Part shown: in pieces, positions 34,598-51,775 of the stretch
How the letters are laid out: each line of letters begins with the position of its first letter
Numbering within the stretch: the first letter of the stretch is position 1
DNA from: a virus
Lineage: Duplodnaviria > Caudoviricetes
Virus record (IMG/VR): IMGVR_UViG_3300048686_000814
Span: 1 to 54,084 of that record
Length of the DNA stretch: 54,084 nucleotides
Strand: one strand, 5' to 3'
Notes under the pieces: generated by a model
Told to the model about the DNA's origin: nothing
What the model saw: only the letters and a program-made list of their open reading frames with translations
The model's database searches: none
Position numbers and translations under genes: made by a program

Positions 34598-34598
34598 G

Positions 34599-34880: not shown

Positions 34881-34886
34881 GGTTTT

Positions 34887-36179: not shown

Positions 36180-36187
36180 ACAATTGT

Positions 36188-38394: not shown

Positions 38395-38399
38395 TATGA

Positions 38400-38576
38400 T
38401 TAATGCCTACCACAAATACTAACAATGTCACTAGCAGTATAATTCTTTTGCATACCAGTGTTAATACAATCGCGCTTATGATTTGATGCCACAGTTATTG
38501 GCATTACAAATACAAATAATATAAACACAAATCCTAATGTTCCATAAACCATTGCTTCTTTTAATGCTTCACTCAC
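38400..38576 (-). CDS. Small membrane protein (58 aa), absent from the ORF track
   Basis: MSEALKEAMVYGTLGFVFILFVFVMPITVASNHKRDCINTGMQKNYTASDIVSICGRH; GTGA coupling to the upstream gene. Confidence 0.6.
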   Translation of the reverse strand: MSEALKEAMVYGTLGFVFILFVFVMPITVASNHKRDCINTGMQKNYTASDIVSICGRH

Positions 38577-39196: not shown

Positions 39197-39212
39197 GCGA
39201 TTCTCCAGAAGT

Positions 39213-39233
39213 AAAAGGCGGCACTAGGCCGCC
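39213..39233 (-). terminator. Rho-independent terminator
   Basis: ggcggc-ctagt-gccgcc-tttt. Confidence 0.7.
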
Positions 39234-39237
39234 ACAA

Positions 39238-39612
39238 TTATGCTGCTTTTAAGACACTAGCAAAGTAAACTGCAGCTTTGCCGGTAAGTTTGCCAAGGAT
39301 GTCGTCGTCAATAGGACCTCCCTTAGCTTCAATCGCTTGCCGTAAGGACGCAATTGAATCTTCTTTTGAGACGCGCTTAGTACCTTCGCCTGACGCAGTC
39401 TTAGTTGTCTTAGCTGAACCGGCACTGGGGTCTTTCTTAACATATACTCCAGCTTGAACGAGCACCATGCGTACGCCGTTTGGTGACATTTCAATTTCTT
39501 CGGCAATATCTTTGATGATTTCAGTTGAACTTTCAGGAGTTGGACCTGCCTGTTCATACATTTCAATAACTTTAGTTTTGAGTTCATCTGTCCACTGTGA
39601 TTGCGTTGCCAT
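39238..39612 (-). CDS. D3: T5 D3-like protein
   Basis: QWTDEL, PNGVRM.L..AGVYVKK, RVSK, DDDILGKLTGKAA. Confidence 0.8.
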   Translation of the reverse strand: MATQSQWTDELKTKVIEMYEQAGPTPESSTEIIKDIAEEIEMSPNGVRMVLVQAGVYVKKDPSAGSAKTTKTASGEGTKRVSKEDSIASLRQAIEAKGGPIDDDILGKLTGKAAVYFASVLKAA

Positions 39613-39622
39613 TTTTATTTCC

Positions 39623-39874
39623 TTAGTGTATATTTAAATTGTTTTTTGGATTAAGTGTTTTTAATAAATCTTGCTCTAATAATTTATTGTACATAGCTTC
39701 ATTACTAGCTACAAGCATATAAAGTAATGCACTAGGAACTAAACTGTCTGGTAGCTCATGTAAATGTTTTTGATTTTCAATACACAGTTGTTCTAGTTTT
39801 GCACGAAATTGTACGCTATATTTTATTGTTTCATGTAATTGAATACTATCCCATATTCTAAATTTTTCAGACAT
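39623..39874 (-). CDS. Hypothetical protein
   Basis: 83 aa, coupled to neighbour. Confidence 0.6.
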   Translation of the reverse strand: MSEKFRIWDSIQLHETIKYSVQFRAKLEQLCIENQKHLHELPDSLVPSALLYMLVASNEAMYNKLLEQDLLKTLNPKNNLNIH

Positions 39875-40139
39875 ACTCTACTTGAACATCACTCATACTT
39901 TCCGGCTTAAATCGCCTATAGTTATGCTTGAGATCAAATTCCTGTAATACTTGCATTGTTTCTTCGTGTTGACGACGACGCAATGCGCCCATAGTCTCTG
40001 TAAATTTAGCAAATTCGTTGTTATCAAGACTGCTAACATCCCATCCTTCTATAAACTTTGTAGGGGTAACAAGCTCAATAATTGCTCGTTTAGTAACCTC
40101 ACCATCCTGTTTAGTATAATTAAATTCAAGTAGTTTCAT
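39867..40139 (-). CDS. Hypothetical protein
   Basis: FNYTKQDG..R..YRRFKPE; directly downstream of a promoter. Confidence 0.65.
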   Translation of the reverse strand: MKLLEFNYTKQDGEVTKRAIIELVTPTKFIEGWDVSSLDNNEFAKFTETMGALRRRQHEETMQVLQEFDLKHNYRRFKPESMSDVQVEYV

Positions 40140-40169
40140 AGGCAGCCTTTCTATATCAACAGAAATAAT

Positions 40170-40198
40170 ATTATACAGTGTTTAATTAAAAATTTCAA
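40170..40198 (-). promoter_or_regulatory. Sigma70-type promoter
   Basis: TTGAAA-N17-TATAAT. Confidence 0.75.
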
Positions 40199-40208
40199 AT
40201 AAAAAATT

Positions 40209-40469
40209 TTACTCTTGTTTTAAGATTTCGCTGCGTAATGCCTTGCGAAAAAGCTCACCTTTTTCCTCACTAAATAGTGGAATAAACAAGCTAGGTGCTA
40301 CTAGTATACTAATACAAATATATGTAATACTACTTAGAGTAGGACTACGAGTAAAAGTATTATCTATTCCTAGTTTTTTAGCTTCTTGGACTATGGGTAC
40401 GTAAAAAAATAACCAACAACATATACCTGTAGTTACTGCAAATACAAGGTATAATGTTAAGGCATCCAT
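40209..40469 (-). CDS. Two-TM membrane protein
   Basis: Two hydrophobic segments. Confidence 0.65.
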   Translation of the reverse strand: MDALTLYLVFAVTTGICCWLFFYVPIVQEAKKLGIDNTFTRSPTLSSITYICISILVAPSLFIPLFSEEKGELFRKALRSEILKQE

Positions 40470-40864
40470 ACGTGGCGACCATACCTATCATGCGCACGCG
40501 CACCAATTGAGAAATCTACTCTACTAGTTTGATTAACCTTAGTACCAGCTTTTGGCTTATTATAACTAGCAAGTGCTTCTAGTTGAATCTTATGATTGCT
40601 GTTAAACATATCACGGTTAACAAATCCTGCAAAGCTTTTGAATAGTTTAGCAATCTTAATATTTCCAGGAGTCCACTGTGGATCTTTGGGTGTAGCACGA
40701 CGATATTTAATAGCACTAGTAGCTTTTTCTGCTACTTTATCATTGGGATGTTGTTTTAAATGTTTTGCTAGTTTACGTTTACGATTGGTTTCCCATACTT
40801 TATTACTTTTATATCTTGACCAGTAATTTTGATCACTTTTACTGCTAGTTTTACCTTTGGCCAT
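40457..40864 (-). CDS. Basic hypothetical protein
   Basis: 135 aa, K/R-rich, with HLKQHPND. Confidence 0.65.
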   Translation of the reverse strand: MAKGKTSSKSDQNYWSRYKSNKVWETNRKRKLAKHLKQHPNDKVAEKATSAIKYRRATPKDPQWTPGNIKIAKLFKSFAGFVNRDMFNSNHKIQLEALASYNKPKAGTKVNQTSRVDFSIGARAHDRYGRHVWMP

Positions 40865-41074
40865 TTATACCTCAATATAATTAATCAATGATTCTTCACT
40901 ATCCCACAACCATTGCTGCAACTCATAGGCATTGTCAATACCTTCAGGTACATGATCATAATCTAAAAAATGTAACATTGCATCTAATGGGCTACTAGCC
41001 CATACTACTTCTAGGTCAATGCCATCATCTTGGGGGTGTTGAAAAGCTACCACATATTTCTTATCTTGTTCCAT
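40865..41074 (-). CDS. Acidic hypothetical protein
   Basis: SD aagga; first gene after a promoter. Confidence 0.65.
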   Translation of the reverse strand: MEQDKKYVVAFQHPQDDGIDLEVVWASSPLDAMLHFLDYDHVPEGIDNAYELQQWLWDSEESLINYIEV

Positions 41075-41101
41075 AGTCCTTTCCTTTATTATCGAATAAT
41101 T

Positions 41102-41130
41102 ATTATAGCAAAATACAACTACTGTGTCAA
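41102..41130 (-). promoter_or_regulatory. Consensus sigma70 promoter
   Basis: TTGACA-N17-TATAAT with extended TG. Confidence 0.85.
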
Positions 41131-41147
41131 TATAATTTTTTTACAAC

Positions 41148-41172
41148 AAAAAACCCAGCCTAAGCTGGGTTT
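41148..41172 (-). terminator. Terminator after the tRNA cluster
   Basis: aaacccagc-ttag-gctgggttttttg on the minus strand. Confidence 0.8.
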
Positions 41173-41178
41173 GGTGTT

Positions 41179-41257
<79 letters not shown>

Positions 41258-41258
41258 A

Positions 41259-41333
41259 TGGTACTCAATAACAGATTCGAACTGCTGACCCTGGCCGTGT
41301 AAAGGCCACGCTCTACCACTGAGCTAATTGAGT
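41259..41333 (-). tRNA. tRNA-Val(TAC)
   Basis: Cloverleaf; tggcc-TTTACAC-ggcca; TTCGAAT; CCA. Confidence 0.9.
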
Positions 41334-41339
41334 ATTTAT

Positions 41340-41849
41340 TTAAACCATTATTTTACTTACTGCGGTTATTACACTACTAATACGACCAATATCTCGCAAT
41401 TGTTCTACATTGTAGCCCGCCTTGCGTAGTGTATCGTAGTGTGCTTTTACACAAAATTCGCATTTACCTACTATACTAGCTGCTAAACTATATATCTCAA
41501 ATTTATCTTTAGTAGTACCGGCATGAGTACTAATAGCGTTCATACGTAGTTGAGCAGGTAAATTTTTTAATTGAATATCTTTACTCATTTCTACATATGG
41601 ATACCAAGTATTATTCATAGCCATAATACTAGCGGCTGTAATAGCTGCTTCAGCCTCTTTATTATCAGTCATCTCACTATGAATCCAAGTCCACAGTTTG
41701 TGGTGTCCAGTAGCAAAAGCTGCTGCTAATGCTACATATTCCGCTGTTTCTCCTAGTATACTGCGTTTAATAGTAGTATCTAGGTTTAGCTTAATATCCT
41801 TGGCATAATCTGGAATTTCACCTTTAAGGTTGTCTACCCACTGTGTCAC
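41340..41849 (-). CDS. ahpD: Alkylhydroperoxidase AhpD
   Basis: IPDYAKDIKLNL, MAMNN.WY, LRMN, SIVGKCEFCVKAH. Confidence 0.92.
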   Translation of the reverse strand: MTQWVDNLKGEIPDYAKDIKLNLDTTIKRSILGETAEYVALAAAFATGHHKLWTWIHSEMTDNKEAEAAITAASIMAMNNTWYPYVEMSKDIQLKNLPAQLRMNAISTHAGTTKDKFEIYSLAASIVGKCEFCVKAHYDTLRKAGYNVEQLRDIGRISSVITAVSKIMV

Positions 41850-42424
41850 AGTGTTGTTCCGCCTACAGCACGATTACATTGACAAAGTTCACCAGTTTGT
41901 AGTGCATCTAATACACGCAGTGTTTCTTCTGGACTGCGACCTACGTTAAGGTTATTTACTGTTACATGCTGAATAACATTATCAGGATCAACAATAAATG
42001 TAGCACGTAGTGCTGCACCTGCTGGTACGTAAAATACACCTAGTTGTTCAATTAAGCTAAGATTTTTATATCCGATGCCAAATGCATCTTCTTCAGTCCA
42101 CTCATTACTTCTGCGCTGTGTATCAGCAAATTGAACGTGTTTGATTTTGCCCAAATCTTGGTGACTACGCTGCCAAGCAAGTTTGCAAAACTCATTATCT
42201 GTGCTGCCTGTTAATAGTACAGCATCACGATCTGCAAAATCTTGAAATAGTTTGTCGTATGCTACAATTTCTGTGGGGCATACAAACGTAAAATCTTTGG
42301 GGTAATATACAACGACTTTCCACTTACCAGGAAAGCTAGTTTCAGTAATATCAAAAAATTGATCGCTGCCTGGATTAATACCAGTTACTAAGAATGGTTT
42401 TAGTTTATCGCCTACTGTTTTCAT
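41846..42424 (-). CDS. ahpC: Peroxiredoxin AhpC
   Basis: YPKDFTFVCPTE, RATFIVDP, VGR, LDALQTGELCQCN. True start is MKTVG (42424); the longer ORF call runs into a tRNA. Confidence 0.95.
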   Translation of the reverse strand: MKTVGDKLKPFLVTGINPGSDQFFDITETSFPGKWKVVVYYPKDFTFVCPTEIVAYDKLFQDFADRDAVLLTGSTDNEFCKLAWQRSHQDLGKIKHVQFADTQRRSNEWTEEDAFGIGYKNLSLIEQLGVFYVPAGAALRATFIVDPDNVIQHVTVNNLNVGRSPEETLRVLDALQTGELCQCNRAVGGTTL

Positions 42425-42441
42425 AATATCCTTGTGTTGTG

Positions 42442-42517
42442 TGGAGCGGCAAATCGGTCTCGAACCGACAACATCCTGCTTGGAAGGCAGGTGCTCTACC
42501 AATTGAGCTATTGCCGC
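42442..42517 (-). tRNA. tRNA-Gly(TCC)
   Basis: GCGGCAA..cctgc-CTTCCAA-gcagg..TTCGAGA..CTCCA. Confidence 0.93.
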
Positions 42518-42518
42518 A

Positions 42519-42594
<76 letters not shown>

Positions 42595-42687
42595 ACTTTA
42601 ATTAAATCTACTTTTATAAATTGGTATTCATCTAAATACCAACGAAGATACAGTTTAGGGTCGATTAGCTTAATGTACTCTAAACTA

Positions 42688-42894
42688 TCAGTCTGCCCAC
42701 TTATCTTCGTCTTCGTCTGTGTTGGTTTCAGTGTCTGCATAATCGCTCATTACAACAAGACTAACGCCAGTATGACTGGCTAGCTCTTCAACTAGAGCTG
42801 CAATTTTATGTAGGAGATCAACGTGATCATAGTGATCATCTCCATCACACTCAAAACTAACACTCATGCCCGCATGTTTAAACTCTAGTTCCAT
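42688..42894 (-). CDS. Acidic hypothetical protein
   Basis: SD gagga; 68 aa. Confidence 0.6.
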   Translation of the reverse strand: MELEFKHAGMSVSFECDGDDHYDHVDLLHKIAALVEELASHTGVSLVVMSDYADTETNTDEDEDKWAD

Positions 42895-42914
42895 AAATTC
42901 CTCTGTTTGTGTTG

Positions 42915-43235
42915 TTGGTGGCGGTTGTTGGCTAATAAGGTCAACCGCCTAAACCCCAGCCTAGCTTATGCAGCTAAGGCAAATACCTCATCGTTGGCAT
43001 TTATCTTATTTGCTTCTTTTACGGAGATCGCCTACCGAGTTGTCCACCGCAATACTCTTTACCCCGTCGAAACCGTGACTGGCCCATCAAAAGCACAATA
43101 CTAGCATATAAGCTAAATGGATCGATCCTTCCAACCACTGTCGATCACCCGTTGGGTAGGGTATTATGCTTTTGGTGGACCAGAGGGGAGTCGAACCCCT
43201 GTCCGCAGTACGTTTCTATTAGCTTCATACAACTA
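42915..43235 (-). ncRNA. ssrA: Circularly permuted (two-piece) tmRNA with tag ANDEVFALAA
   Basis: On the minus strand the acceptor piece (..GGACAGGGGTTCGACTCCCCTCTGGTCCACCA, CCA end at 43173) comes BEFORE the 5' piece GGGCCAGTCACGGTTTCGAC (starts 43085). The acceptor stem has G3-U70. The tag ORF gcc aac gat gag gta ttt gcc tta gct gca taa is at 42998-42966. Outer ends approximate. Confidence 0.9.
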
Positions 43236-43240
43236 TATTA

Positions 43241-43504
43241 CTACATCTTTCCAATTCTATCCTTAGCACGTTGTCGTTGTTCGCGCTCTTTTATTACTCC
43301 ATATTTATTTTCTAGCTCATCAATAATATTTTTCATATGTAAGTAGTGTTTATATATATTACCTATTTTGTTTTCAATATAAAAAGTTATACCAAAAGCT
43401 AATAATAGTATACATATAAAATTAATTCCCACTAATGCCGCTAAAATAATAAATTGTTCTTGTAAAGCATCGAATTGAATTATTAGTTTATCAATTATTT
43501 GCAT
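43241..43504 (-). CDS. Single-TM hypothetical protein
   Basis: 87 aa, between tRNA-Thr and the tmRNA. Confidence 0.6.
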   Translation of the reverse strand: MQIIDKLIIQFDALQEQFIILAALVGINFICILLLAFGITFYIENKIGNIYKHYLHMKNIIDELENKYGVIKEREQRQRAKDRIGKM

Positions 43505-43521
43505 TTTATATAAATTATATT

Positions 43522-43596
43522 TGGTGCTGAATATCGGATTCGAACTGATGACCTACCGCTTACAAGGCGGTTGCTCTACCACTGAGCTAATTCAGC
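43522..43596 (-). tRNA. tRNA-Thr(TGT)
   Basis: GCTGAAT..accgc-CTTGTAA-gcggt..TTCGAAT..CACCA. Confidence 0.92.
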
Positions 43597-43678
43597 AAAA
43601 ATAAATCTAGCTAGAAAGCCTAGCAAAAATGCTAATGCTACGGCTTCTAGTAATGTAAAAGGTTGACTATTATAAGCA

Positions 43679-43897
43679 TTAACTACTGATCTTTTGATGT
43701 TGACATAGTTCTTCAAAACAATCCCACAATTTATTAAATTTTACTTCATAAATGGTTTCTAAGCCAAGTAAATAATTTGCAATCTGATCTTTGGTTGGGT
43801 CACCCTCCAAGACTAATTCTTGCAAGTGTTTAATCTCGGTAGTAATTTCCCAGTTTTTTAGGATTAGCTGCTCTAGGTCAAATCTAGTATATTTCAT
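43679..43897 (-). CDS. Hypothetical protein
   Basis: RFDLEQLI..W..N.LLG..Y..KF..LW..FE pattern. Confidence 0.7.
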   Translation of the reverse strand: MKYTRFDLEQLILKNWEITTEIKHLQELVLEGDPTKDQIANYLLGLETIYEVKFNKLWDCFEELCQHQKISS

Positions 43898-44376
43898 CGG
43901 TTTAATATAAATTTTAGTCTGTCAGCTGCATAGCTTGCAGCAAAAGCATCTGGTTTGATTAAGGCTTCTACACTACAAGTACCACGAATATAGCCTATAG
44001 CTTGTTGCACTACTTGATTACTAGCATAGCACTCCTGTGGGTTAAGGTCTAGGTGTATTTCAACGTGACGATCCTCAATTACATCCTTTAGCTCTAAAAA
44101 GATTTCACTGACCTTATAAACTTCAGTCATCAATCTAATACTGGGTCTATTACGCTTTTGATCATAGTCACGTTCACGAACATGATAGCCAAATATTTTA
44201 CAGCCGTGTTTACCATCTATGTGTATTACTATAGCAACTGTATAATCAGCCCACCAAACCTTGTCTAGTCTAGTACGCTCACTGTCTGCGCCTAAGTAGA
44301 TTTTACTCTCTTGACTACTTTGCCGTATATAGTCTTTTACTTCGTTAATATCGAAAGGTTTCATTTTTATTCTCAT
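43894..44376 (-). CDS. RNase H-like YkuK-family protein
   Basis: KIYLGADS, RLMTEV, EIHLD.N, IKPDAFAASYAAD. Confidence 0.82.
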   Translation of the reverse strand: MRIKMKPFDINEVKDYIRQSSQESKIYLGADSERTRLDKVWWADYTVAIVIHIDGKHGCKIFGYHVRERDYDQKRNRPSIRLMTEVYKVSEIFLELKDVIEDRHVEIHLDLNPQECYASNQVVQQAIGYIRGTCSVEALIKPDAFAASYAADRLKFILNR

Positions 44377-44386
44377 AGCTTTTTAG

Positions 44387-44416
44387 TATAGCCAAGTAAT
44401 TTAATACTTGGCTATA
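44387..44416. other. Perfect 12-bp inverted repeat
   Basis: tatagccaagta-atttaa-tacttggctata. Confidence 0.6.
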
Positions 44417-44424
44417 GTAAAACT

Positions 44425-44646
44425 CTAGTCGTCGCCTTCAACCCTTACATATCTATAGTTTCTAGCTATTTCTTTAACCATTAGTTTAAAGTTCTCTCTA
44501 GACTCTATAAATTGTGTATATCCCTGAGCACCATTAGTTGCTAATGCCAATGCTGCTGCTCCCACGTCATCAACTCCACTCATTATAATGTCAAAATCTT
44601 GCGTATGTCGTTTACAATTTTGTGGATATACTTTTATACTGCTCAT
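44425..44646 (-). CDS. Hypothetical protein
   Basis: Start MSSIK; GAQGYTQFIESRE. Confidence 0.6.
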   Translation of the reverse strand: MSSIKVYPQNCKRHTQDFDIIMSGVDDVGAAALALATNGAQGYTQFIESRENFKLMVKEIARNYRYVRVEGDD

Positions 44647-44648
44647 TT

Positions 44649-45242
44649 TTACACCTGTGCCTGCCCTGTTATATGCCAACTGTCATTAAAAATTAGTGTT
44701 ACGGATTCGTATGGAGATTGTAATACTAGCTCATCACCGTCGTCAATCTTATCTCCATTTTGTGTTACAATATAGATCTTCTTGTTTCCAATCTGCTTTT
44801 GCTGTGCTTTGATTATAAGCATTTTGCCCTTAGGCGGATTTTGTGGTAGATATATTTCTATACTTTTTGTGTTGATGACTCCTATGTAACAATCTTCTGG
44901 TTGAATGTAATAACTTTCTGCAATAACTTTTGTTGGTAATATACAACTATTAGTTACTGGTTCACTGTTGCCACTAGGTCCCTGTATACCTTGTATGCCT
45001 TGTATGCCACTACCATCTTGTCCACTAGTACCTTGTACTCCCTCTGGGCCTTGGCTTCCAGTTAAACCTTGCGTACCTTGTGCAACTGCACTGCCACTTA
45101 TACCTTGTACACCTTGCGTGCCCTGCACTCCACCTTGATTTATTATTGTATCGTTATCACTAATTGTTCTAGTTTGTGGTAATATTGGTGGTGGTGTAAA
45201 AAACCAAGGCGGTGGTGGAAAGAAATATTGATTTTGATACAT
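44649..45242 (-). CDS. Pro-rich N-terminus, short GXQ collagen segment and C-terminal beta domain
   Basis: PPPPWFFTPPP; [11 protein letters not shown]..; DCYIGV..IYLP..GK..IIK..IDDG..SVTLIF..W. Confidence 0.7.
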   Translation of the reverse strand: MYQNQYFFPPPPWFFTPPPILPQTRTISDNDTIINQGGVQGTQGVQGISGSAVAQGTQGLTGSQGPEGVQGTSGQDGSGIQGIQGIQGPSGNSEPVTNSCILPTKVIAESYYIQPEDCYIGVINTKSIEIYLPQNPPKGKMLIIKAQQKQIGNKKIYIVTQNGDKIDDGDELVLQSPYESVTLIFNDSWHITGQAQV

Positions 45243-45260
45243 AGTAACCTCCAATAAAGC

Positions 45261-45285
45261 GCCCCACAGCTTTTGGCTGTGGGGC
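45261..45285. terminator. GC-rich hairpin
   Basis: gccccacagc-ttttg-gctgtggggc, after the 45302 gene. Confidence 0.6.
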
Positions 45286-45301
45286 TAACAAGTATTAAAA
45301 G

Positions 45302-46063
45302 TTATCTAATATTTGTGTTTGTGTTGGCTGGATTAGCAGTTTGTGTACCACTGCCAACATTAATTGCACTATTAGTGCTTTGAATATTTTGAGCAATGCC
45401 CCAGAGTAGATTATATAACTGGCCCCACTGCTGTTGCTGTTGCTGTTGCTGTTGCATTTGGTTGATGTTGTTAGTTGTGGTAACCTCAACGCCACGAGCT
45501 ACGCTGCCATTATCTAGCTTAGCTTGTAGTGCTATTACAGCTGCATTAGCATCTGTAAGTTGACGGTTTAGGGTCGCCTCATATTGTTGTACTAGCAGTG
45601 CACGAGTTTTATCGCCATCACTGCTAATATCCTTGCTTAGCTCATAGCGATTTTCCATGATTTGCTGCTGAACGCCGTTAAGTTGCTGTGCAAGTACCAT
45701 AGTACCAGCATTAACTGCTTCTTTAACGCTGTCAGTGCGACTGGCTAAACTGCTTGCTACATTATTAAGCTGAGTTGTTAAGCCCAGTGTTTGTGTAGCT
45801 TGACTAGCTTCCATAGCACTTGTGCCATTAGAAACACTCTTATCTACAGCTCCAATAGCTTGCATTAGGCTCATGTTAGCCTGTACTTGCTCAGGTGGAC
45901 TGCGTAGAGCTGCAGCAGCAGCTGCGTTACCATCGCCGCCAAATAGGTTGCCGTTGTTACGTAGTAGTGAACCTAGGATAAGGCCTCCAATAAGACCATT
46001 ACCACCAAATAGGCCATCACCACCACTCATCATCATACCAGCTGGTGTAATACTTTCTGCCAT
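45302..46063 (-). CDS. Gly-rich N-terminus / Gln-rich coiled-coil hypothetical protein
   Basis: SD aaggag before MAESIT; GGLILGSLL; DGDKTRALL; poly-Q. Confidence 0.75.
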   Translation of the reverse strand: MAESITPAGMMMSGGDGLFGGNGLIGGLILGSLLRNNGNLFGGDGNAAAAAALRSPPEQVQANMSLMQAIGAVDKSVSNGTSAMEASQATQTLGLTTQLNNVASSLASRTDSVKEAVNAGTMVLAQQLNGVQQQIMENRYELSKDISSDGDKTRALLVQQYEATLNRQLTDANAAVIALQAKLDNGSVARGVEVTTTNNINQMQQQQQQQQQWGQLYNLLWGIAQNIQSTNSAINVGSGTQTANPANTNTNIR

Positions 46064-46139
46064 TTTATTCTCCTTGTTGTTATAATTATAGCGGAGTTTA
46101 GGCAAGTAATACTGGCAGGTACTACTTGCCAGTTATAAG

Positions 46140-46421
46140 CTACTTAGGAGTAGCTTCAAAAGTTTCTGTACTAGTAATAGTTTTACTTACTATAAACGGT
46201 TTAGGGTCTGGTTGTTTAGGCTTAATTTCTGGAATAATACTTTTGTATTGATTCATATTTAATCTTACGCCATCTAGGGTAAGTTCACCTATTCGTTCGG
46301 CCATAAAGTGCAAGTCTTCGTCTGTAAGACTTTTTTCTTCGTGTATAAACTCAAATAGTCTTAATAGTAGTGGAACACTCATAAGACTATATCTATGTTC
46401 TATTTTTAATGACTCGTGCAT
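46140..46421 (-). CDS. Hypothetical protein
   Basis: SVPLLLRLFEF..E..DEDLH..AE pattern. Confidence 0.65.
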   Translation of the reverse strand: MHESLKIEHRYSLMSVPLLLRLFEFIHEEKSLTDEDLHFMAERIGELTLDGVRLNMNQYKSIIPEIKPKQPDPKPFIVSKTITSTETFEATPK

Positions 46422-46488
46422 TTTAAGTTTCCTTTATTGTTTTTATTATAAACCATAGTAAAATACTCTCAGCAAGAGCACTTTAGTA

Positions 46489-46566
46489 TGGCGATGCGTA
46501 TGGGATTTGAACCCATGATCTCTGCCGTGACAGGGCAGCGCATTTGGCCAGCTATGCTAACGCACC
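46489..46566 (-). tRNA. tRNA-Asp(GTC)
   Basis: GGTGCGT..ctgcc-CTGTCAC-ggcag..TTCAAAT..CGCCA. Confidence 0.9.
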
Positions 46567-46758
46567 TTAGTGTGGGGCTTCCATTTGGTCTAGTAAGTAA
46601 CTATAAACGCGATTACGACCACTACTAGTATGCCATAAGTCGTCTGGTATTTCTCCATCAAATGCACGATTAGGGCTGTTCCACCAACGATACACTAATT
46701 CATCACTACCTAATAGTGCTTTTAATATACTATTTGCTTTTTCGTCTATAGACCTCAT
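46567..46758 (-). CDS. Xre/MbcA/ParS antitoxin C-terminal (toxin-binding) domain protein
   Basis: MRSIDEKANSILKALLGSDELVYRWWNSPNRAFDGEIPDDLW..SSGRNRVYSYL matches the G..e....W...pN.a..g..P.dl....G...V...L pattern. Confidence 0.7.
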   Translation of the reverse strand: MRSIDEKANSILKALLGSDELVYRWWNSPNRAFDGEIPDDLWHTSSGRNRVYSYLLDQMEAPH

Positions 46759-46770
46759 ACTATTCCTTTT

Positions 46771-46854
46771 TGGTGCCCTAGGCGAGACTCGAACTCGCAC
46801 GCATCTCTGCACTGGCTTCTAAGACCAGCGTGGCTACCATTACACCACCAGGGC
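46771..46854 (-). tRNA. tRNA-Leu(TAG)
   Basis: ctggt-CTTAGAA-gccag, long variable arm, CCA. Confidence 0.9.
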
Positions 46855-46858
46855 AATT

Positions 46859-46943
46859 TGGTAGGGAAGACCGGAGTCGAACCGGTACGCCGTTAGGCGA
46901 CAGATTTTAAGTCTGTTGTGTCTACCTGTTTCACCACATCCCC
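46859..46943 (-). tRNA. tRNA-Leu(TAA)
   Basis: acaga-CTTAAAA-tctgt, long variable arm, CCA. Confidence 0.9.
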
Positions 46944-47261: not shown

Positions 47262-47531
47262 CTATTTTCCGTTACTAGTACCCATAACATAAGCTTCCAT
47301 AGTTTTTGCCAAATCAATGGCTTCCTGTGGAGCATATATTTGTGGCATATAGGTTGTATAATTTTCTATTGGAATACCCTGCTTTAGTTTATATTCAAAA
47401 AACATTTTTGCAAATTTCTTTTGTGTGCGAAATTTACAGTCTAGGTATTCCATAGCTTCTTCTAGTAACTCTTCTCTTAATTCGTTTATATCTGCCATGC
47501 TGGCCCCTTTTTTATTTTTATTATCGGCCAC
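47262..47531 (-). CDS. Hypothetical protein (paralogue of 47681-47905)
   Basis: ELREELLEEAMEYLD..PQIY..E.I..AK....V. Confidence 0.65.
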   Translation of the reverse strand: MADNKNKKGASMADINELREELLEEAMEYLDCKFRTQKKFAKMFFEYKLKQGIPIENYTTYMPQIYAPQEAIDLAKTMEAYVMGTSNGK

Positions 47532-47535
47532 AGTA

Positions 47536-47703
47536 CTATGTCCAGCTATTTTTGTCAGTATAATAGTACCAGACTTTTTCTAGGTATTCTACGTCAGCCA
47601 TTGTTTGCGGGTTATGATCCTCTATAAACTTTTGTAGCGAGTAGGGCTGACTAAAATATTCTTGTACTCGCTGCCAAAGATCACTTACTATTGACAAAGC
47701 CAT
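47536..47703 (-). CDS. Small hypothetical protein
   Basis: MALSIV..LQKFIEDHNPQTMADVEYLEK.W. Confidence 0.6.
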   Translation of the reverse strand: MALSIVSDLWQRVQEYFSQPYSLQKFIEDHNPQTMADVEYLEKVWYYYTDKNSWT

Positions 47704-47905
47704 AGAGTTTTTTTGCTTGTTCAATAACGTCTTCAAAAGTGTACATCTTAGGAGCATATTCCTGATACTTTTGCATCATGTCCTGACCACTTTTAGCCAT
47801 TTCTTCAAAGGCTCGACGTGTAAACTCTGTGTTGACTTCAAACTGTTTGTCTAGATAATCCTTGCTCATTTTTAGTAGTTGAGCTCTGATTTCGAATGGA
47901 TTCAT
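47681..47905 (-). CDS. Hypothetical protein
   Basis: NPFEIRAQLLKMSKDYLD..PKMY..EDVIEQAKKLYGFV; SD ggag. Confidence 0.7.
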   Translation of the reverse strand: MNPFEIRAQLLKMSKDYLDKQFEVNTEFTRRAFEEMAKSGQDMMQKYQEYAPKMYTFEDVIEQAKKLYGFVNSK

Positions 47906-48023
47906 TATTATCTCCGTGATGTGTGTTTTGGTTAATTAACTTTCTAGCTTTGCGCCACTTACCACTACGTGTTAGCTGAGCTGCTAGTAGTGCTTCACAT
48001 ACTATGTGATACCAGCCTTTCAC
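47838..48023 (-). CDS. Small hypothetical protein
   Basis: GTGA-coupled to the upstream peptide; 3' end overlaps the next gene. Confidence 0.4.
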   Translation of the reverse strand: MKGWYHIVCEALLAAQLTRSGKWRKARKLINQNTHHGDNNESIRNQSSTTKNEQGLSRQTV

Positions 48024-48124
48024 TGCCAGCCTCTATAGCTTAAGTAACGTTTTGCCCTTGCCTGACCACTACGCTCTAGTGCTTGAAATATTTTGTTACA
48101 CCAGTAACATACTTTTTTAGTCAT
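48020..48124 (-). CDS. 34-aa peptide, absent from the ORF track
   Basis: GGAGG SD; MTKKVCYWCNKIFQALERSGQARAKRYLSYRGWQ. Confidence 0.55.
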   Translation of the reverse strand: MTKKVCYWCNKIFQALERSGQARAKRYLSYRGWQ

Positions 48125-48167
48125 AAAACCTCCGTGTGTATTTGCCAGTTTTTAACTAGACTGGCAA

Positions 48168-48356
48168 CTAGTTTTTTACATCTTTCCTGGTTTCTTCTTT
48201 CCTGGTTTCTTCATTGGTTTGTAGCTCATTTGTAGGTTTCCTTTTTCTAGCGTGGATTGCTCGTTCTGCTGCTTCACAACTAGCAAGTGTGTCAAATTGA
48301 CAATTGCCCTTTTCTCCATACTTCCACTTACCATTACTACACTTATAACAAGGCAT
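48168..48356 (-). CDS. Small Cys-containing hypothetical protein
   Basis: MPCYKCSNGKWKYG..G.C.FDT...C..A..AIH. Confidence 0.6.
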   Translation of the reverse strand: MPCYKCSNGKWKYGEKGNCQFDTLASCEAAERAIHARKRKPTNELQTNEETRKEETRKDVKN

Positions 48357-48670
48357 TATAGTGCCTCTATTTTAGTTAATGTACTAACTTTATGCCCTAC
48401 AATAGTATCAGTTGGTTTATACTTGCCACTATCATCAGGTCTATACACACGGATAAGTGCGCCTGGATCTTCTTTAGTACCTGTAATCTTAAAACTGCTG
48501 CCAGGTACGTCAACACTGCCACTGGTAATTACTCTAGTAACCTTACCACGTGCAGTGCCTCCACTACTATTCCAGCTAACACTATCACCTCGTTTTACAC
48601 TTCCAGCTTTGGCTTTTTGAATAGCCGCAAGCATGCTTGTATAAAACTCTAGTTCATAAATTTTATCCAT
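48356..48670 (-). CDS. Tudor/SH3-like (DUF2945/Hva1-like) domain protein
   Basis: GDSVSWNSSGG..RGKV..GTKEDP..VGHKVSTL; SD ggagga. Confidence 0.7.
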   Translation of the reverse strand: MDKIYELEFYTSMLAAIQKAKAGSVKRGDSVSWNSSGGTARGKVTRVITSGSVDVPGSSFKITGTKEDPGALIRVYRPDDSGKYKPTDTIVGHKVSTLTKIEAL

Positions 48671-48679
48671 TATAGTCCT

Positions 48680-48868
48680 CCATATTGGGGTGCCCTCTGT
48701 TTACTGCCTAGGCCGCTAAGCCCGTGCCCTAAACTTACATAGTTTCATGACGACTTGCTATACTTTAGGGTCAGACACGACTACTAGCTACTATTCCGGT
48801 CTTTGCTAGTAATAGACTCTGCAATGTTCCGGATGTTCCGGCTACGAGCAAAGAGCACCACAATATGG
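48680..48868 (-). ncRNA. Candidate structured RNA of unknown class (189 nt)
   Basis: Closing stem CCAUAUUG-U-GGUGCUCUUUG / CAGAGGGCACC-C-CAAUAUGG encloses 3-4 hairpins; G-U pairs favour the minus strand. Confidence 0.65.
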
Positions 48869-48869
48869 C

Positions 48870-49025
48870 CTATTTTAAGTAGGCCTCTGTGACTTGGTTA
48901 TATGCTTCAACAAAGTCACTATAACTGCAACTAGTATCTATATACACTAAACTAAATAGTTTTTCTTTATTTATGTTCATGTCATTGGCTAAATGCCAGC
49001 AAATACTGTGCAGTATTTCGTACAT
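48870..49025 (-). CDS. 51-aa ORF, absent from the ORF track
   Basis: TAATG-coupled to uvsE; MYEILHSICWHLANDMNINKKKLFSLVYIDTSCSYSDFVEAYNQVTEAYLK. Confidence 0.5.
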   Translation of the reverse strand: MYEILHSICWHLANDMNINKEKLFSLVYIDTSCSYSDFVEAYNQVTEAYLK

Positions 49026-50035
49026 TATAGGTAGTCCTTTACAAACTTACTACTAGCTAGATTTTTTTGCTTACTCTCACACATAATATCTGCCCATTCA
49101 TTATGACTTGCAGCCCAGTTATTTACTCGGTCATTCCAGTAGTAATCACTATGTGCTCGCAGTTTAGCTGACGTAAAACCCATGCTTGTAAGTAGTTTGT
49201 AGTCGGGCAGTTCATCTCTTGCATGTTCGACAAGCACATCTTCTCTGGATACTGAATAGTGTATAACTGGTCTAATACCTCTCCACGAATCTTTAACCAC
49301 TCTGATTCGCTTATCGTCTGGTTCAATGTATTCTCCCTTGCTGTAAATCCAGTGGTGATGTATATCTAAAACTAAGGCACAGTGATCTACTAACTCTAAG
49401 CTATGCTCTAGGCCCCAGGTATACTCGGCGTTTTCGATTGTTAATATATTACGTGCTTCTGGGCTTAATTTATTACACGCTTGTATAATTCCTGCTGGCC
49501 CACGCTTGCCGCCAATATGAACATTACACTTAAAGTCTTGAAACTTCCTGCCATAGCCCATATAGCGGGCGATGTCAGTATGATACTCAAACTCAGTAAT
49601 GCTGTTGTCAACAATTCCATCATTTTCACTTGCCAATACACAAAATTGTCCTGGATGAAAGCTAAGACGTACGTCTCGGCCACGTGCAATATCACCTACT
49701 TTAGCAAGGTGTGTTTCTAGGTACTTTACTACATCACTTTCAAAATAAAACCACATCCAGTCTTCGTGTGTATAAGCTGGAAATAAATCACTACTCAATC
49801 TAAACTGACGCTGATCTCTAGGCAGGCTACCAACCCACTCTACCTGTCGCTTCAGAGTTTCGCAGTTGTGATGTATAATTGTCCATATCTTTTCTACTGC
49901 TTTATCCCTAGTCTGACGATTAAGATATGTTAATGTAGTTGTAGTTGTATTTAATTTTTTGTCCGCTTTGTCATGTGCATTTTGAATCTTGCAGGCAAAG
50001 CCAACGCGTTTAATACTATTATCAAATGTGTGCAT
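49025..50035 (-). CDS. uvsE: UV-damage endonuclease UvsE
   Basis: RVGFACK, FRLSSDLFP, RLSFHPGQF.VLAS, NVH, TIEN, LVLDIHHHW, HYS, AHSD, DIMCESK.KN. Confidence 0.93.
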   Translation of the reverse strand: MHTFDNSIKRVGFACKIQNAHDKADKKLNTTTTTLTYLNRQTRDKAVEKIWTIIHHNCETLKRQVEWVGSLPRDQRQFRLSSDLFPAYTHEDWMWFYFESDVVKYLETHLAKVGDIARGRDVRLSFHPGQFCVLASENDGIVDNSITEFEYHTDIARYMGYGRKFQDFKCNVHIGGKRGPAGIIQACNKLSPEARNILTIENAEYTWGLEHSLELVDHCALVLDIHHHWIYSKGEYIEPDDKRIRVVKDSWRGIRPVIHYSVSREDVLVEHARDELPDYKLLTSMGFTSAKLRAHSDYYWNDRVNNWAASHNEWADIMCESKQKNLASSKFVKDYL

Positions 50036-50901: not shown

Positions 50902-51135
50902 TTATAAGCCAATTAATTTAACACAGTAGCTGCAAATAGGATTGTCATCTAAGTCTGGCACTAGTGATTTAGACCATACATTGCAGTGTGTACACTGATC
51001 TATTTGCTTGGTAAGTGTAGCTAAATCTACTTCGCTAATATCTACTCCAAGCTCTTGACAAACTTGAAGTAGATTTTTATGAGTTTTATGTAAATTATTT
51101 ACTAACTGTTGGTACATTTGGTTTATAACGATCAT
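50902..51135 (-). CDS. Zn-ribbon hypothetical protein
   Basis: CTHC..W..CSYC. Confidence 0.65.
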   Translation of the reverse strand: MIVINQMYQQLVNNLHKTHKNLLQVCQELGVDISEVDLATLTKQIDQCTHCNVWSKSLVPDLDDNPICSYCVKLIGL

Positions 51136-51775
51136 CCAGTTCGGGATGAGTTTTTTCGAATTCTAATAAAAACATGATGCAACAAGCTGCATGTGCAAGA
51201 TGGCTTAAGCCACTTTCAGGATCTTTGTCTTCACCATCATTGTATGCCATAATATGTCGCATTGCTGCGGCTAGTGGTCGTGACCAGGCAAAGCCATCAC
51301 GCCAATTGTGTGCATGATACTTATCAGCACCAAATTTTAATACTGCTGCTGTTTGTAAGAGTGCTTCTGTGCTTAATAGGTTAACAGGTAGTTTATCGCT
51401 GTCAAACTTCATAGCTGAACCAGTTTTTTCTTGGCTAGTAGATGAAACACTACCACCAGCACTACCGGTAACTACAAGGTTAGTCCAGTCAATGGGCTGG
51501 TATAAATGCTGTGGTTTAGGGTCTGTATTTGTAGTTATACTAATAGTCTGATTATTAGGAAGTATACTACTAATTGTAATTTTATCTTCTGCACCGCTTG
51601 TTGCCATTGTACTAAAATTCATATTATCAAAAACAGCTCCTTCATACCCTGGGTGATATGGAGCTTCTGCTACTAAACGTTTATTTTCTGCACTGTTAGC
51701 AGGCGGGATGTTTGTATTTGTGTTAAAAAATAAATTTAACTCTTGCTGTTGGGTAAATTCTTCGTGTTTGGGCAT
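51095..51775 (-). CDS. dATP/dGTP diphosphohydrolase-domain (DUF5664-like) protein with N-terminal extension
   Basis: KFDSDK..LL..VLKFGADKY..HNWR.G..AAMRH..GEDKDPESGLSHLAHAACC.MFL. Confidence 0.85.
   Translation of the reverse strand: MPKHEEFTQQQELNLFFNTNTNIPPANSAENKRLVAEAPYHPGYEGAVFDNMNFSTMATSGAEDKITISSILPNNQTISITTNTDPKPQHLYQPIDWTNLVVTGSAGGSVSSTSQEKTGSAMKFDSDKLPVNLLSTEALLQTAAVLKFGADKYHAHNWRDGFAWSRPLAAAMRHIMAYNDGEDKDPESGLSHLAHAACCIMFLLEFEKTHPELDDRYKPNVPTVSK

What the first reader, a model, noticed from the sequence alone, without database searches (positions are those of the whole stretch)
48680..48868. Unrecognised 189-nt multi-stem RNA that exactly fills an intergenic gap
Seen on the minus strand: a ~19-bp closing stem with several G-U pairs, enclosing four hairpins. 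These are CCGGA-ACA-UCCGG; AUUACUAGC/GCUAGUAGU, whose loop carries a second CCGGA (alternative or pseudoknot partner for UCCGG); a long arm CGUG..CCCUAAA-GUAUAG-loop-CUAUGU..UUUAGGG-CACG; and GGC-UUAGCG-GCC. It is GC-richer than the flanks, and its 3' GG overlaps the GGAGGA SD of the Tudor-like gene. I cannot match it to tRNA, SRP, 6S, RNase P or known ribozymes. Inference: a novel phage ncRNA or cis-switch, possibly bound by the adjacent Tudor/SH3-like protein.
Basis: partly seen in the sequence, partly recalled or inferred. Interest (0 to 1): 0.72.

Follow-up and report, generated by a model that had tools for sequence, protein, structure and literature searches.

The report
Self-pairing small RNA of phage tRNA islands
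This is a previously uncatalogued, strongly conserved ~190-base folded RNA of freshwater T5-like phages whose two hairpin tips always spell self-complementary words, so copies of the RNA probably stick to one another like the recently discovered RNA-only assemblies of other phages.

Summary
Window 48680-48868 (minus strand) folds far better than shuffles (z -4.4) and matches no Rfam 15 family. I found 75 distinct homologues, all on viral or metagenome contigs. On these, 93.9% of pair cells are standard pairs against 68.9% when shuffled, and 47 of 57 pairs change on both sides.

It is a five-helix junction: closing stem P1, short P2, long arms P3 and P4, and P5 with an invariant UAGC tetraloop.

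Both long arms end in palindromic words that change between lineages yet stay palindromic. P3 carries CCGG (the window), UGUACA, CACGUG, CUCGAG, UCUAGA, CCUAGG, CCCGGG or UCCGGA. P4 carries UCAUGA, UAAUUA or UCGCGA in a 9-nt loop. Adjacent bases cannot pair within one chain, so this points to symmetric kissing loops between copies.

In 24 of 75 relatives the RNA starts on the CCA of tRNA-Pro. In 19 of 75 it ends at the first base of tRNA-Leu or tRNA-Ala. It therefore looks like a stand-alone stable RNA of the phage tRNA island, not a switch for the Tudor-like gene, which follows it in only 19 of 75.

Assembly and function are inferred, not shown. It is a new family of the ROOL/GOLLD/manA kind.

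The parts
48680..48868 (-). The whole RNA as seen in the window (189 nt; the CM match with flanks is 48673-48875).
   Evidence: (247 bits with model R1).
48849..48868 (-). P1, 5' strand (CCAUAUUG-U-GGUGCUCUUUG). The first three bases, CCA, are the encoded 3' CCA of tRNA-Pro(UGG) in 23 relatives.
   Evidence: (helix 1: 19 pairs, 15 with changes on both sides, 97.3% paired).
48680..48699 (-). P1, 3' strand (CAGAGGGCACC-C-CAAUAUGG). The terminal GG overlaps the GGAGGA Shine-Dalgarno of the next gene here, and overlaps the first bases of tRNA-Ala in 7 relatives.
48845..48852 (-). UUUGCUCG: the end of P1 plus the J1/2 junction, nearly invariant (UUGCUCG or UUGCUAG in the family).
48829..48841 (-). 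P2, a short hairpin (CCGGA-ACA-UCCGG).
   Evidence: helix 2: 4 pairs, 3 with changes on both sides, 93.7% paired.
48772..48821 (-). P3 arm: basal stem CAGA/UCUG, an internal loop, a 9-bp stem and a 16-nt apical loop.
   Evidence: helices 3-5.
48796..48799 (-). CCGG, the self-complementary word in the P3 apical loop (loop = 48789-48804). Other lineages have 6-8-nt palindromes at the same place.
48728..48769 (-). P4 arm: outer stem CCUAAA/UUUAGG, a conserved internal loop (AUAG / UAA), a 6-bp inner stem and a 9-nt loop.
   Evidence: helices 6, 7.
48745..48750 (-). UCAUGA, a 6-nt palindrome at positions 3-8 of the 9-nt P4 loop CGUCAUGAA (loop = 48744-48752).
   Evidence: 224 of 225 cells self-complementary; C-G 45 / A-U 29; A-U 71 / G-C 4.
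48706..48727 (-). P5 hairpin with invariant CUUAGCGG (48713-48720): a UAGC tetraloop closed by U-G and C-G.
   Evidence: pairs 224-231 and 225-230 invariant in 75 of 75.
48699..48708 (-). GGCAGUAAAC, the nearly invariant junction between P5 and the P1 3' strand.

Best explanation
Window 48680-48868 (minus strand) is the gene of a stand-alone, stable, structured non-coding RNA of about 185-190 nt. It belongs to the tRNA/tmRNA island of a clade of uncultured freshwater phages that are distantly T5-like.

Fold: it forms a five-helix junction of P1 to P5.

Maturation (inferred): in the layout seen in about a third of the family, the RNA is transcribed inside the tRNA array and lies flush between tRNA-Pro(UGG) and tRNA-Leu(UAG) or tRNA-Ala(UGC). 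Ordinary tRNA processing would then set it free: 3' trimming behind the CCA of tRNA-Pro, and RNase P at the 5' end of the next tRNA. In the window's own lineage the gene sits between two protein genes instead.

Action (inferred): the two long arms, P3 and P4, each end in a loop that displays a self-complementary word (CCGG and UCAUGA in the window). Each word pairs with the same word on another copy, giving two different symmetric kissing loops per molecule. The RNA would therefore act as a homodimer or a higher homo-oligomer (ring, cage or chain). The invariant junction and P5 nucleotides would fix the angle between the arms.

What is shown: the fold, its conservation, the palindrome-preserving changes, the tRNA context, and its absence from Rfam.

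What is inferred: processing by tRNA enzymes, self-assembly, and any downstream role. That role is unknown, as it is for ROOL, GOLLD and manA.
For: - Fold: z = -4.39.
- Family size: 95 full-length matches give 75 distinct sequences, from IMG/VR and metagenome contigs only.
- Covariation on the model-based alignment: 93.9% of 4141 cells are paired against 68.9% in shuffles (0 of 500 shuffles reach it). 47 of 57 pairs change on both sides. The covariation score is 0.669 against 0.229 shuffled and 0.05-0.12 for slid partners.
- Strand: the reverse strand scores 19-39 bits where the forward strand scores 227-252. G-U pairs are frequent, for example U-G in 75 of 75 at the P5 loop closure.
- P4 loop: the 6-nt word is self-complementary in 224 of 225 cells, with C-G/A-U (45/29) and A-U/G-C (71/4) exchanges. 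Slid controls give 3-50%.
- P3 loop: nine different palindromic words occur. 75 of 75 sequences have a palindrome of at least 4 nt and 54 of 75 have one of at least 6 nt. In register, 18, 20 and 15 of 21 distinct 16-nt apices pair across the centre; every other register gives 9 of 21 or fewer.
- No partner within the chain: none of the 54 words of 6 nt or more occurs a second time in its RNA, and the P4 word does so in 1 of 75.
- Word switching: words differ between RNAs that are 86-89% identical elsewhere.
- Precedent for the argument: the same reasoning (adjacent bases cannot pair within one chain, yet palindromes covary) was confirmed by cryo-EM for OLE L9.3 and GOLLD L21a (PMC12286853, passages read).
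- Stand-alone gene: tRNA-Pro(UGG) ends on the first three bases of P1 in 23 of 75 sequences, with one more 6 nt away. tRNA-Leu(UAG) (12) or tRNA-Ala(UGC) (7) starts within -4 to +8 nt of the end of P1.
- Weak hint of a discrete, abundant transcript: in 2 of 4 metatranscriptome runs, contigs cover the RNA while the flanking bins are near zero. In X17 a 116-nt contig has depth 279.6, against 3.7-27.7 for contigs on neighbouring genes. That contig carries the compensatory P4 changes.
Against: - No experiment or three-dimensional model shows dimers or multimers; no tool here folds RNA complexes.
- In the window's own subgroup the P3 word is only 4 nt (CCGG). That is expected by chance in 41% of shuffled loops, and it also occurs in the P2 stem in 16 of 21 sequences.
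- The P4 word UAAUUA would give a very weak isolated duplex, -0.4 kcal/mol.
- One sequence, L094, has an imperfect P4 word, UCAUAA.
- Palindromic loops could instead be sites for a dimeric protein.
- In the window itself no tRNA flanks the RNA; the nearest is about 1.7 kb downstream. No promoter or terminator consensus lies beside it, so its ends here are unknown.
- 2 of 4 RNA runs showed no contig on it, and contig depth is a poor measure of expression.
- The alignment used for the pair counts was fitted to the model's structure, which favours that structure.
Confidence: 0.62

Rival explanations
1. It is a monomeric protein-binding RNA. The two palindromic loop words are recognition sites for a symmetric (dimeric) phage or host protein, or for a double-strand-specific nuclease after transient pairing. 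The RNA would act as a scaffold, sponge or decoy, for example against a host defence that targets tRNAs.
For: - The nearly invariant unpaired nucleotides (UUGCUMG, CUUAGCGG, GGYAGUAAAC) would suit protein contacts.
- It sits among phage tRNAs and a tmRNA.
Against: - A protein site would be expected to keep its sequence. Here nine unrelated P3 words and three P4 words replace each other, and only self-complementarity is kept.
- No protein gene is consistently adjacent.
Confidence: 0.17
2. It is a cis-acting leader (riboswitch or translational operator) that controls the downstream Tudor-like gene by hiding its ribosome-binding site at the foot of P1.
For: - In the window and 18 other distinct sequences the Tudor gene starts 9-11 nt after P1 (within P1 in two). 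The last GG of P1 is part of GGAGGA.
- In the L017 lineage a 42-aa ORF starts 4 nt after P1.
Against: - The downstream feature is not conserved: the Tudor gene in 19 of 75, and tRNA genes within 8 nt in 19 of 75.
- 64 of the 80 Tudor loci have no copy within 3 kb.
- P1 covaries as a stable 19-bp stem, and no alternative pairing is conserved.
Confidence: 0.07
3. It is a structured spacer of the tRNA precursor. Its only role would be to bring the 3' end of tRNA-Pro and the 5' end of the next tRNA together through P1, so that processing enzymes cut correctly. The excised piece would be a by-product.
For: P1 incorporates the CCA of tRNA-Pro and the first G residues of tRNA-Ala, with no spacer between them.
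Against: - The RNA is kept at full length, with covarying arms, in lineages where no tRNA flanks it: the window group and the L017 group, together more than 40 of the 75 sequences.
- A spacer needs neither two covarying palindromic loops nor invariant junction bases.
- There is a hint of high steady-state level in one metatranscriptome.
Confidence: 0.08
4. It is a DNA-level element, such as an origin, a recombination or packaging site, or a cluster of restriction-type palindromes, and not an RNA.
For: The loop words are all classical 4-8-bp DNA palindromes.
Against: - The signal is strand-specific: many G-U pairs would be A-C on the other strand, and the reverse strand scores 19-39 bits against 227-252.
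- The fold z-score is weaker on the plus strand.
- It lies flush between tRNA genes on their strand.
- It is present in metatranscriptome contigs.
Confidence: 0.02

Closest known systems
ROOL (RF03087) and GOLLD (RF01998), large ornate RNAs of phages and prophages
   Same: - Encoded by phages, often in or beside tRNA islands, with function unknown.
- They form RNA-only homo-oligomers held by kissing loops, among other contacts.
- Symmetric kissing loops were recognised by palindromes that covary into other palindromes (PMC12286853, passages read). This RNA shows the same signature twice, and it lies in tRNA arrays.
   Different: - No sequence or structure match at E <= 10 in the local Rfam search.
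- About 190 nt here, against about 600-800 nt or more.
- A single five-way junction without the many pseudoknots.
- Assembly here is only inferred.
manA RNA motif (RF01745)
   Same: A phage-associated RNA under 200 nt that cryo-EM shows forming decamers and a 60-mer cage through intermolecular kissing loops (bioRxiv 10.64898/2026.07.01.735769, abstract and Results part 1 read).
   Different: - No Rfam match.
- The manA contacts described are between different loops (L5-L7', L8-L9'), not self-complementary loops.
- manA is described there as a putative 5'-UTR element, whereas this RNA sits between tRNA genes.
Stable RNAs of unknown function in the tRNA regions of T5 (RNA2H, RNAI, RNAIII and others) and T4 (rnaC and rnaD, species 1 and 2)
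   Same: - Small stable RNAs annotated inside phage tRNA clusters, flush with tRNA genes.
- T5 RNA2H (172 nt) lies directly upstream of tRNA-Ala(UGC) and tRNA-Leu(UAG), the same neighbours as in this family. The window's DNA polymerase is closest to T5-like Demerecviridae, at 48-49% amino-acid identity.
- RNA2H also folds with a closing stem, z = -3.0.
   Different: - Model R2 run with filters off gives no match to RNA2H on its strand. The best score anywhere in the T5 and T4 tRNA regions is 21 bits, on an unrelated 83-nt hairpin.
- In the RNA2H MFE the CCUAGG and UCUAGA words pair with each other in a stem instead of sitting in loops.
- Three other cultured T5-like phages and Limnohabitans phage DC31 lack the family.
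HIV-1 dimerisation initiation site and other six-nucleotide palindromic apical loops (oskar 3'UTR)
   Same: - A 6-nt palindrome displayed in an apical loop makes a symmetric kissing-loop homodimer, and compensatory changes restore it (PMC7357161, passages read).
- The P4 loop here has 9 nt with the palindrome at positions 3-8. I recall the same layout for the HIV-1 DIS loop, but did not check it in a call.
   Different: - Unrelated RNA and biology: a dsDNA phage, not a retroviral genome.
- Two different palindromic loops per molecule, which allows more than a dimer.
phi29 prohead RNA (pRNA)
   Same: A phage RNA with a closing helix and two loops that make intermolecular Watson-Crick contacts and build rings (PMC7357161, passages read). 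The pRNA length, about 120-174 nt, is recalled and comes from no call.
   Different: - pRNA loops are complementary to each other (head-to-tail), not self-complementary.
- I recall pRNA as belonging to small phi29-like podoviruses; this was not checked in a call.
- No Rfam match here, and the context here is a tRNA island, not the packaging genes.

Membership tests
Any Rfam 15 family (4227 models) | A match to the family covariance model at or near its gathering score. | tested here: not met
   - Whole window at gathering threshold: 10 matches, all tRNA or tmRNA, none at 48680-48868.
- Local search of 48550-49000 at E <= 10: three matches of 8-17 bits against gathering scores of 45-55.
- Five loci of other subgroups at E <= 1: no match inside the RNA intervals.
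ROOL / GOLLD / manA kind (phage RNA-only self-assembling RNAs) | Encoded by phages, typically at tRNA islands. | tested here: met
   - All 75 sequences come from viral or metagenome contigs; 0 of 46 cellular-genome pattern hits were confirmed by the model.
- tRNA genes lie flush on one or both sides in 24 and 19 of 75.
ROOL / GOLLD / manA kind (phage RNA-only self-assembling RNAs) | Intermolecular contacts supported by covariation (palindrome-to-palindrome changes in loops). | tested here: met
ROOL / GOLLD / manA kind (phage RNA-only self-assembling RNAs) | A homo-oligomer observed physically (cryo-EM, SEC, native gel). | not testable with these tools
   No RNA complex or three-dimensional prediction tool is available; no experiment was done.
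ROOL / GOLLD / manA kind (phage RNA-only self-assembling RNAs) | Sequence or structure homology to one of these families. | tested here: not met
   No hit to RF03087, RF01998 or RF01745 at E <= 10.
T5 RNA2H / T4 species 1 and 2 stable RNAs | Homology to the annotated RNAs. | tested here: not met
   Model R2 with filters off on the T5 region 28000-46000 and the T4 region 69500-73500: nothing on the RNA2H strand and interval, and at most 3.4 bits at rnaC/rnaD.
T5 RNA2H / T4 species 1 and 2 stable RNAs | A small RNA gene embedded in, and flush with, a phage tRNA array. | tested here: met
   This holds for relatives; in the window itself the RNA lies about 1.7 kb upstream of the first tRNA.
Riboswitch or cis-regulatory leader | A constant position upstream of one class of gene, with an expression platform. 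| tested here: not met
   The downstream neighbour varies: the Tudor gene in 19 of 75, tRNA genes in 19 of 75, other small ORFs elsewhere. No terminator-like site lies beside it.
tRNA / tmRNA | Cloverleaf or tmRNA features found by ARAGORN or the Rfam models. | tested here: not met
   ARAGORN finds 9 genes in the window, none at 48680-48868. Rfam finds none there either.
Retron ncRNA, or omega-RNA of IscB/TnpB | An adjacent reverse transcriptase, or an IscB/TnpB gene. | tested here: not met
   - The neighbours are UvdE, a 51-aa ORF, the Tudor-like gene and a CxxC protein.
- 20 of the larger ORFs on the window's minus strand (of 42 ORFs of 150 aa or more on both strands) show replication and repair domains, with no RT or TnpB. 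The other ORFs, including all those on the plus strand, were not scanned.

The most novel reading that the evidence does not exclude
The RNA is the protomer of a defined RNA-only homo-oligomer: a dihedral ring, a small cage or a filament. It would be built from just two orthogonal symmetric kissing loops on a junction of about 185 nt, and released ready-made from a tRNA precursor by RNase P and tRNA 3' processing. The loop words would act as lineage-specific 'addresses' that turn over quickly: nine P3 words, which switch between RNAs 86-89% identical elsewhere. RNAs of co-infecting relatives would then not co-assemble. That would make it the simplest natural two-interface self-assembling RNA, and a third or fourth independent invention of RNA assemblies in phage tRNA islands.
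Probability: 0.3. Interest if true: 0.85.

Novelty: new variant of a known kind. Interest (0 to 1): 0.72.

Why it matters
Natural RNA-only assemblies (OLE, ROOL, GOLLD, manA) were recognised only in 2025-2026, and their function is unknown. Most of them are phage RNAs near tRNA genes.

- This family adds an independent, small and easily synthesised example with an unusually clean sequence signature: two loops, each switching among palindromes.
- It makes two questions directly testable. Why do phages place self-assembling RNAs in tRNA islands? How few interfaces suffice for a defined RNA assembly?
- It gives a possible modern reading of the decades-old 'stable RNAs of unknown function' in T4 and T5 tRNA clusters.
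- It supplies 75 sequences and a covariance model for a new Rfam-type family.

Tried and rejected
- Known families: Rfam at gathering threshold and at E <= 10 found nothing. ARAGORN found nothing at the site.
- Cultured phages: blastn (distant mode) of a 1-kb region and of two other family members against 50,697 phage records gave no match. Model R2 on Limnohabitans phage DC31, Enterobacter phage KKP_3711, Vibrio phage Thalassa and Vibrio phage VPT02 gave only a 59-nt, 21-bit match.
- T5 and T4: RNA2H looked promising by position and length, but R2 with filters off does not match it, nor T4 rnaC or rnaD.
- Cellular genomes: 46 pattern hits in 185,579 species genomes, of which the model confirms 0. 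12 of 69 metagenome pattern hits and 5 of 24 viral ones were also unconfirmed, about the number expected by chance on my own estimate.
- A P2-loop to P4-loop contact (UUCA/UGAA), and a J1/2 GCU(A) to P5 UAGC pseudoknot: I considered both by eye on A5. The first fails in lineages with the UAAUUA loop. The second involves invariant bases and so cannot be tested by covariation; L025 lacks the GCU.
- Promoter and terminator scans beside the RNA in the window, L017 and L019: nothing convincing.
- MAFFT alignment A5 with alifold lost P3 and P4 because of indels. I replaced it with the model-based alignment A6.
- The 42-aa basic ORF after the RNA in the L017 lineage reminded me of ribosome-rescue factor ArfA (recalled). 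Pfam gives no hit, so I dropped the idea.
- RNA runs X16 and X18 had no contig on the RNA. This is no evidence of absence.
- Supplements are closed. I could not check whether the 8,495 unnamed candidate RNAs from IMG/VR in PMC10690425 (passages read) include part of this motif.
- Literature: three full-text searches turned up no description of this RNA.
Full report
**1. The observation**

- On the minus strand, the 189 nt from 48868 down to 48680 sit between the stop codon of a 51-aa ORF (48870-49025) and the start codon of a 104-aa gene with an Hva1_TUDOR domain (48356-48670; PF11160, 3e-08). A UvdE UV-endonuclease gene (49025-50035) lies further upstream.
- The strand folds to -66.4 kcal/mol. 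Shuffles give -50.35 +/- 3.66, so z = -4.39, and 0 of 200 shuffles fold as well. The opposite strand gives z = -2.49.
- G+C is 0.48, against 0.36 for the window and 0.37-0.39 for the flanks. The phage's tmRNA gene is similar at 0.45.

**2. Not a known family**

- Rfam 15 at gathering threshold finds eight tRNA matches and two overlapping tmRNA-model matches in the window, and nothing at this site. ARAGORN calls eight tRNAs and one permuted tmRNA.
- A permissive local search at E <= 10 gives only three chance-level matches of 8-17 bits.
- Five loci from other subgroups also give no match inside the RNA.
- ARAGORN finds no tRNA or tmRNA at the site.

**3. A large family with heavy covariation**

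How the family was collected:
- Loci fetched through the Tudor-like protein (148 relatives, the best 80 kept) contained eight near-full-length copies at 82-96% identity.
- A covariance model from nine sequences (A1, R1) then found seven distant full-length copies at 59-75 bits.
- Two DNA patterns taken from invariant blocks brought 24 and 33 viral loci and 69 metagenome loci. R1 confirmed 19 of the first 24, and 78 of 90 new loci: 21 of 21 viral and 57 of 69 metagenome.
- None of 46 pattern hits in cellular genomes was confirmed.

How the set was trimmed:
- I dropped cut copies (L014/L092, L097, L179, L190, L223), a deletion variant (L082), and loci that re-fetch the same contigs.
- That left 95 full-length matches, which collapse to 75 distinct sequences.

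Pair counts on the model-based alignment A6:
- 93.9% of 4141 cells are standard pairs, against 68.9 +/- 0.5% after shuffling (0 of 500 shuffles reach it).
- 47 of 57 pairs show changes on both sides.
- The covariation score is 0.669, against 0.229 shuffled and 0.05-0.12 with slid partners.
- Caveat: A6 is fitted to the model's structure, which favours that structure. The nine-sequence MAFFT alignment had already given 13 compensatory pairs.

Strand: the signal is strand-specific. The reverse strand scores 19-39 bits against 227-252 forward, and G-U pairs are frequent.

**4. Anatomy**

| Element | Description |
|---|---|
| P1 | 19 bp; 15 pairs covary |
| J1/2 | UUGCUMG, nearly invariant |
| P2 | short hairpin |
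| P3 | long arm: basal stem, internal loop, 8-9-bp stem, apical loop |
| P4 | long arm: 6-7-bp outer stem, conserved AUAG/UAA internal loop, 6-bp inner stem, 9-nt loop |
| P5 | invariant C-U-[UAGC]-G-G |
| J5/1 | GGYAGUAAAC, nearly invariant |

**5. The key finding: two loops that stay palindromic**

P4 loop:
- It is always 9 nt, N-G-[6-nt word]-A.
- The word is UCAUGA (41 of 75), UAAUUA (25), UCGCGA (4), UAAUUG (4, with a wobble) or UCAUAA (1, imperfect).
- Counted as three nested pairs, 224 of 225 cells are self-complementary. Exchanges are C-G/A-U (45/29) and A-U/G-C (71/4). Slid registers give 3-50%.

P3 apex:

| Word | Sequences |
|---|---|
| UCUAGA | 24 |
| CCGG (includes the window) | 21 |
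| CCUAGG | 9 |
| CCCGGG | 8 |
| UCCUAGGA | 4 |
| CACGUG | 3 |
| UCCGGA | 3 |
| UGUACA | 2 |
| CUCGAG | 1 |

- In register, 18, 20 and 15 of 21 distinct 16-nt apices are Watson-Crick across the centre. Every other register gives 9 of 21 or fewer.
- A single 6-nt palindrome in such a loop is not rare by chance (0.15-0.29 per loop). The evidence is the in-register replacement of one palindrome by another, even between RNAs 86-89% identical elsewhere.

Why this points to pairing between copies:
- Adjacent bases cannot pair within one chain.
- No second copy of a word of 6 nt or more exists in the same RNA, in 0 of 54 sequences. The P4 word recurs in 1 of 75.
- The partner must therefore be another molecule.
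- Exactly this argument was validated by cryo-EM for OLE L9.3 and GOLLD L21a (PMC12286853, passages read).
- Six-nt palindromic apical loops drive HIV-1 DIS and oskar dimerisation (PMC7357161, passages read).

Two different self-complementary loops per molecule allow a doubly bonded dimer. If the arms diverge, they allow dihedral rings, cages or chains. I cannot tell which.

**6. Context: a stable RNA of the tRNA island**

- In 23 of 75 sequences the first three bases of P1 (CCA) are the encoded CCA of tRNA-Pro(UGG); one more lies 6 nt away.
- In 19 of 75 sequences tRNA-Leu(UAG) (12) or tRNA-Ala(UGC) (7) begins within -4 to +8 nt of the end of P1. The Rfam tRNA model ends exactly before the CCA.
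- The parts of P1 shared with the tRNAs pair with each other. tRNA 3' processing and RNase P would therefore release a blunt-ended RNA. This is an inference.
- In the window's subgroup the gene sits instead between UvdE or the 51-aa ORF and the Tudor gene. In the L017 subgroup it sits between a 76-aa ORF and a 42-aa basic ORF.
- The Tudor gene follows in only 19 of 75, and only 16 of 80 Tudor loci (plus one cut copy) hold the RNA within 3 kb. This argues against a dedicated switch or a Tudor partnership.
- The window encodes replication and repair genes (RNR, SbcC-like, helicases, PolA, DnaB, primase, NAD ligase). No RT, IscB or TnpB appeared among the 20 larger ORFs scanned.
- Its PolA is closest to T5-like Demerecviridae at 48-49% identity.

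**7. Expression**

- Contigs of four metatranscriptome runs were laid on 47500-50000.
- In X17 the two bins over the RNA have depths 216 and 356, and the adjoining bins have 0. A 116-nt contig of depth 279.6 covers 48695-48803; contigs on neighbouring genes have depths of 3.7-27.7.
- In X15 the RNA bins have depths 45-55, against 2.5 and 9.9 beside them.
- X16 and X18 have none.
- The contigs carry the compensatory P4 changes at 48742/48743 and 48753/48754.
- Contig depth is a poor measure, and conserved sequence attracts relatives' contigs. I count this as a weak hint of a discrete, abundant RNA.

**8. Comparison with what is known**

- Closest in kind are the phage tRNA-island RNAs that self-assemble: ROOL, GOLLD (PMC12286853) and the sub-200-nt manA motif (bioRxiv 10.64898/2026.07.01.735769, Results part 1 read). 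None is homologous.
- Closest in place are the 'stable RNAs with unknown functions' annotated in the T5 and T4 tRNA regions. T5 RNA2H (172 nt) even precedes tRNA-Ala(UGC) and tRNA-Leu(UAG). But model R2 with filters off does not match it, and its predicted fold puts its palindromes in a stem.
- No cultured phage in the collection carries the family.
- The unnamed catalogue of 8,495 candidates from IMG/VR (PMC10690425, passages read) may contain part of it.

**9. Verdict**

- The feature is real.
- It is a new RNA family: 75 distinct sequences, found only on viral or metagenome contigs. The sequencing runs that hold the window are lake, river and other freshwater samples, though some carrier contigs are labelled marine.
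- It is most likely a stand-alone stable RNA that self-associates through two symmetric kissing loops.
- Its cellular role is unknown.

Noticed in passing
window 42875-43286 (-), with tRNAs at 41179-46943 (-): The phage encodes a permuted (two-piece) tmRNA of the beta-proteobacterial type (tag ANDEVFALAA) and eight tRNAs. Relatives carry the same tmRNA with tags ANDTQFALAA, ANDQVYALAA and ANDSQFALAA.
   Followed up: partly
window 51095-51775 (-): A 226-aa protein with the dATP/dGTP diphosphohydrolase N-terminal domain (PF18909, 9.7e-36). I recall this domain as linked to phages that modify their DNA bases; no such pathway was searched for.
   Followed up: no
L017:1996-2124 and equivalents in about 20 relatives: A conserved, very basic 42-aa ORF (MKKKKLPKMRNL...) starts 4 nt after the RNA in the L017 lineage. 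It has no Pfam match.
   Followed up: partly
L019:2775-2875, L220:542-642, L218:589-689, L212:1925-2025: ARAGORN calls an over-long (about 100 nt) tRNA with a four-base anticodon 'tacc'. At the same array position other relatives have a 92-97-nt 'tRNA-Ile(tat)'. These are unusual tRNAs worth a look.
   Followed up: no
L248:3809-3980 (-), phage T5 NC_005859 31808-31979: T5 RNA2H, a 172-nt stable RNA of unknown function, precedes tRNA-Ala(UGC) and tRNA-Leu(UAG). It folds with a closing stem (z = -3.0) and matches no Rfam family in the stretch searched. It is not homologous to the present family by model search.
   Followed up: yes
L082:1631-1785: A 155-nt copy with an internal deletion of about 48 nt that removes half of P3 and the 5' strand of P4 (102.5 bits). 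It is probably a decayed gene.
   Followed up: partly
window 48356-48670 (-); L242 (Limnohabitans phage DC31): The Tudor-like protein has only two relatives among cultured phages. One is inside a 405-aa protein two genes upstream of the major capsid gene of Limnohabitans phage DC31. The other is in a gene annotated as major capsid protein in Roseobacter phage CRP-811. This hints at a virion role, not an RNA-binding one.
   Followed up: partly
window 48870-49025 (-): The 51-aa ORF between UvdE and the RNA is an indel. Relatives L002, L010 and L012 lack it, and an RNA-run contig joins 48874 to 49038 with 27 other letters.
   Followed up: partly
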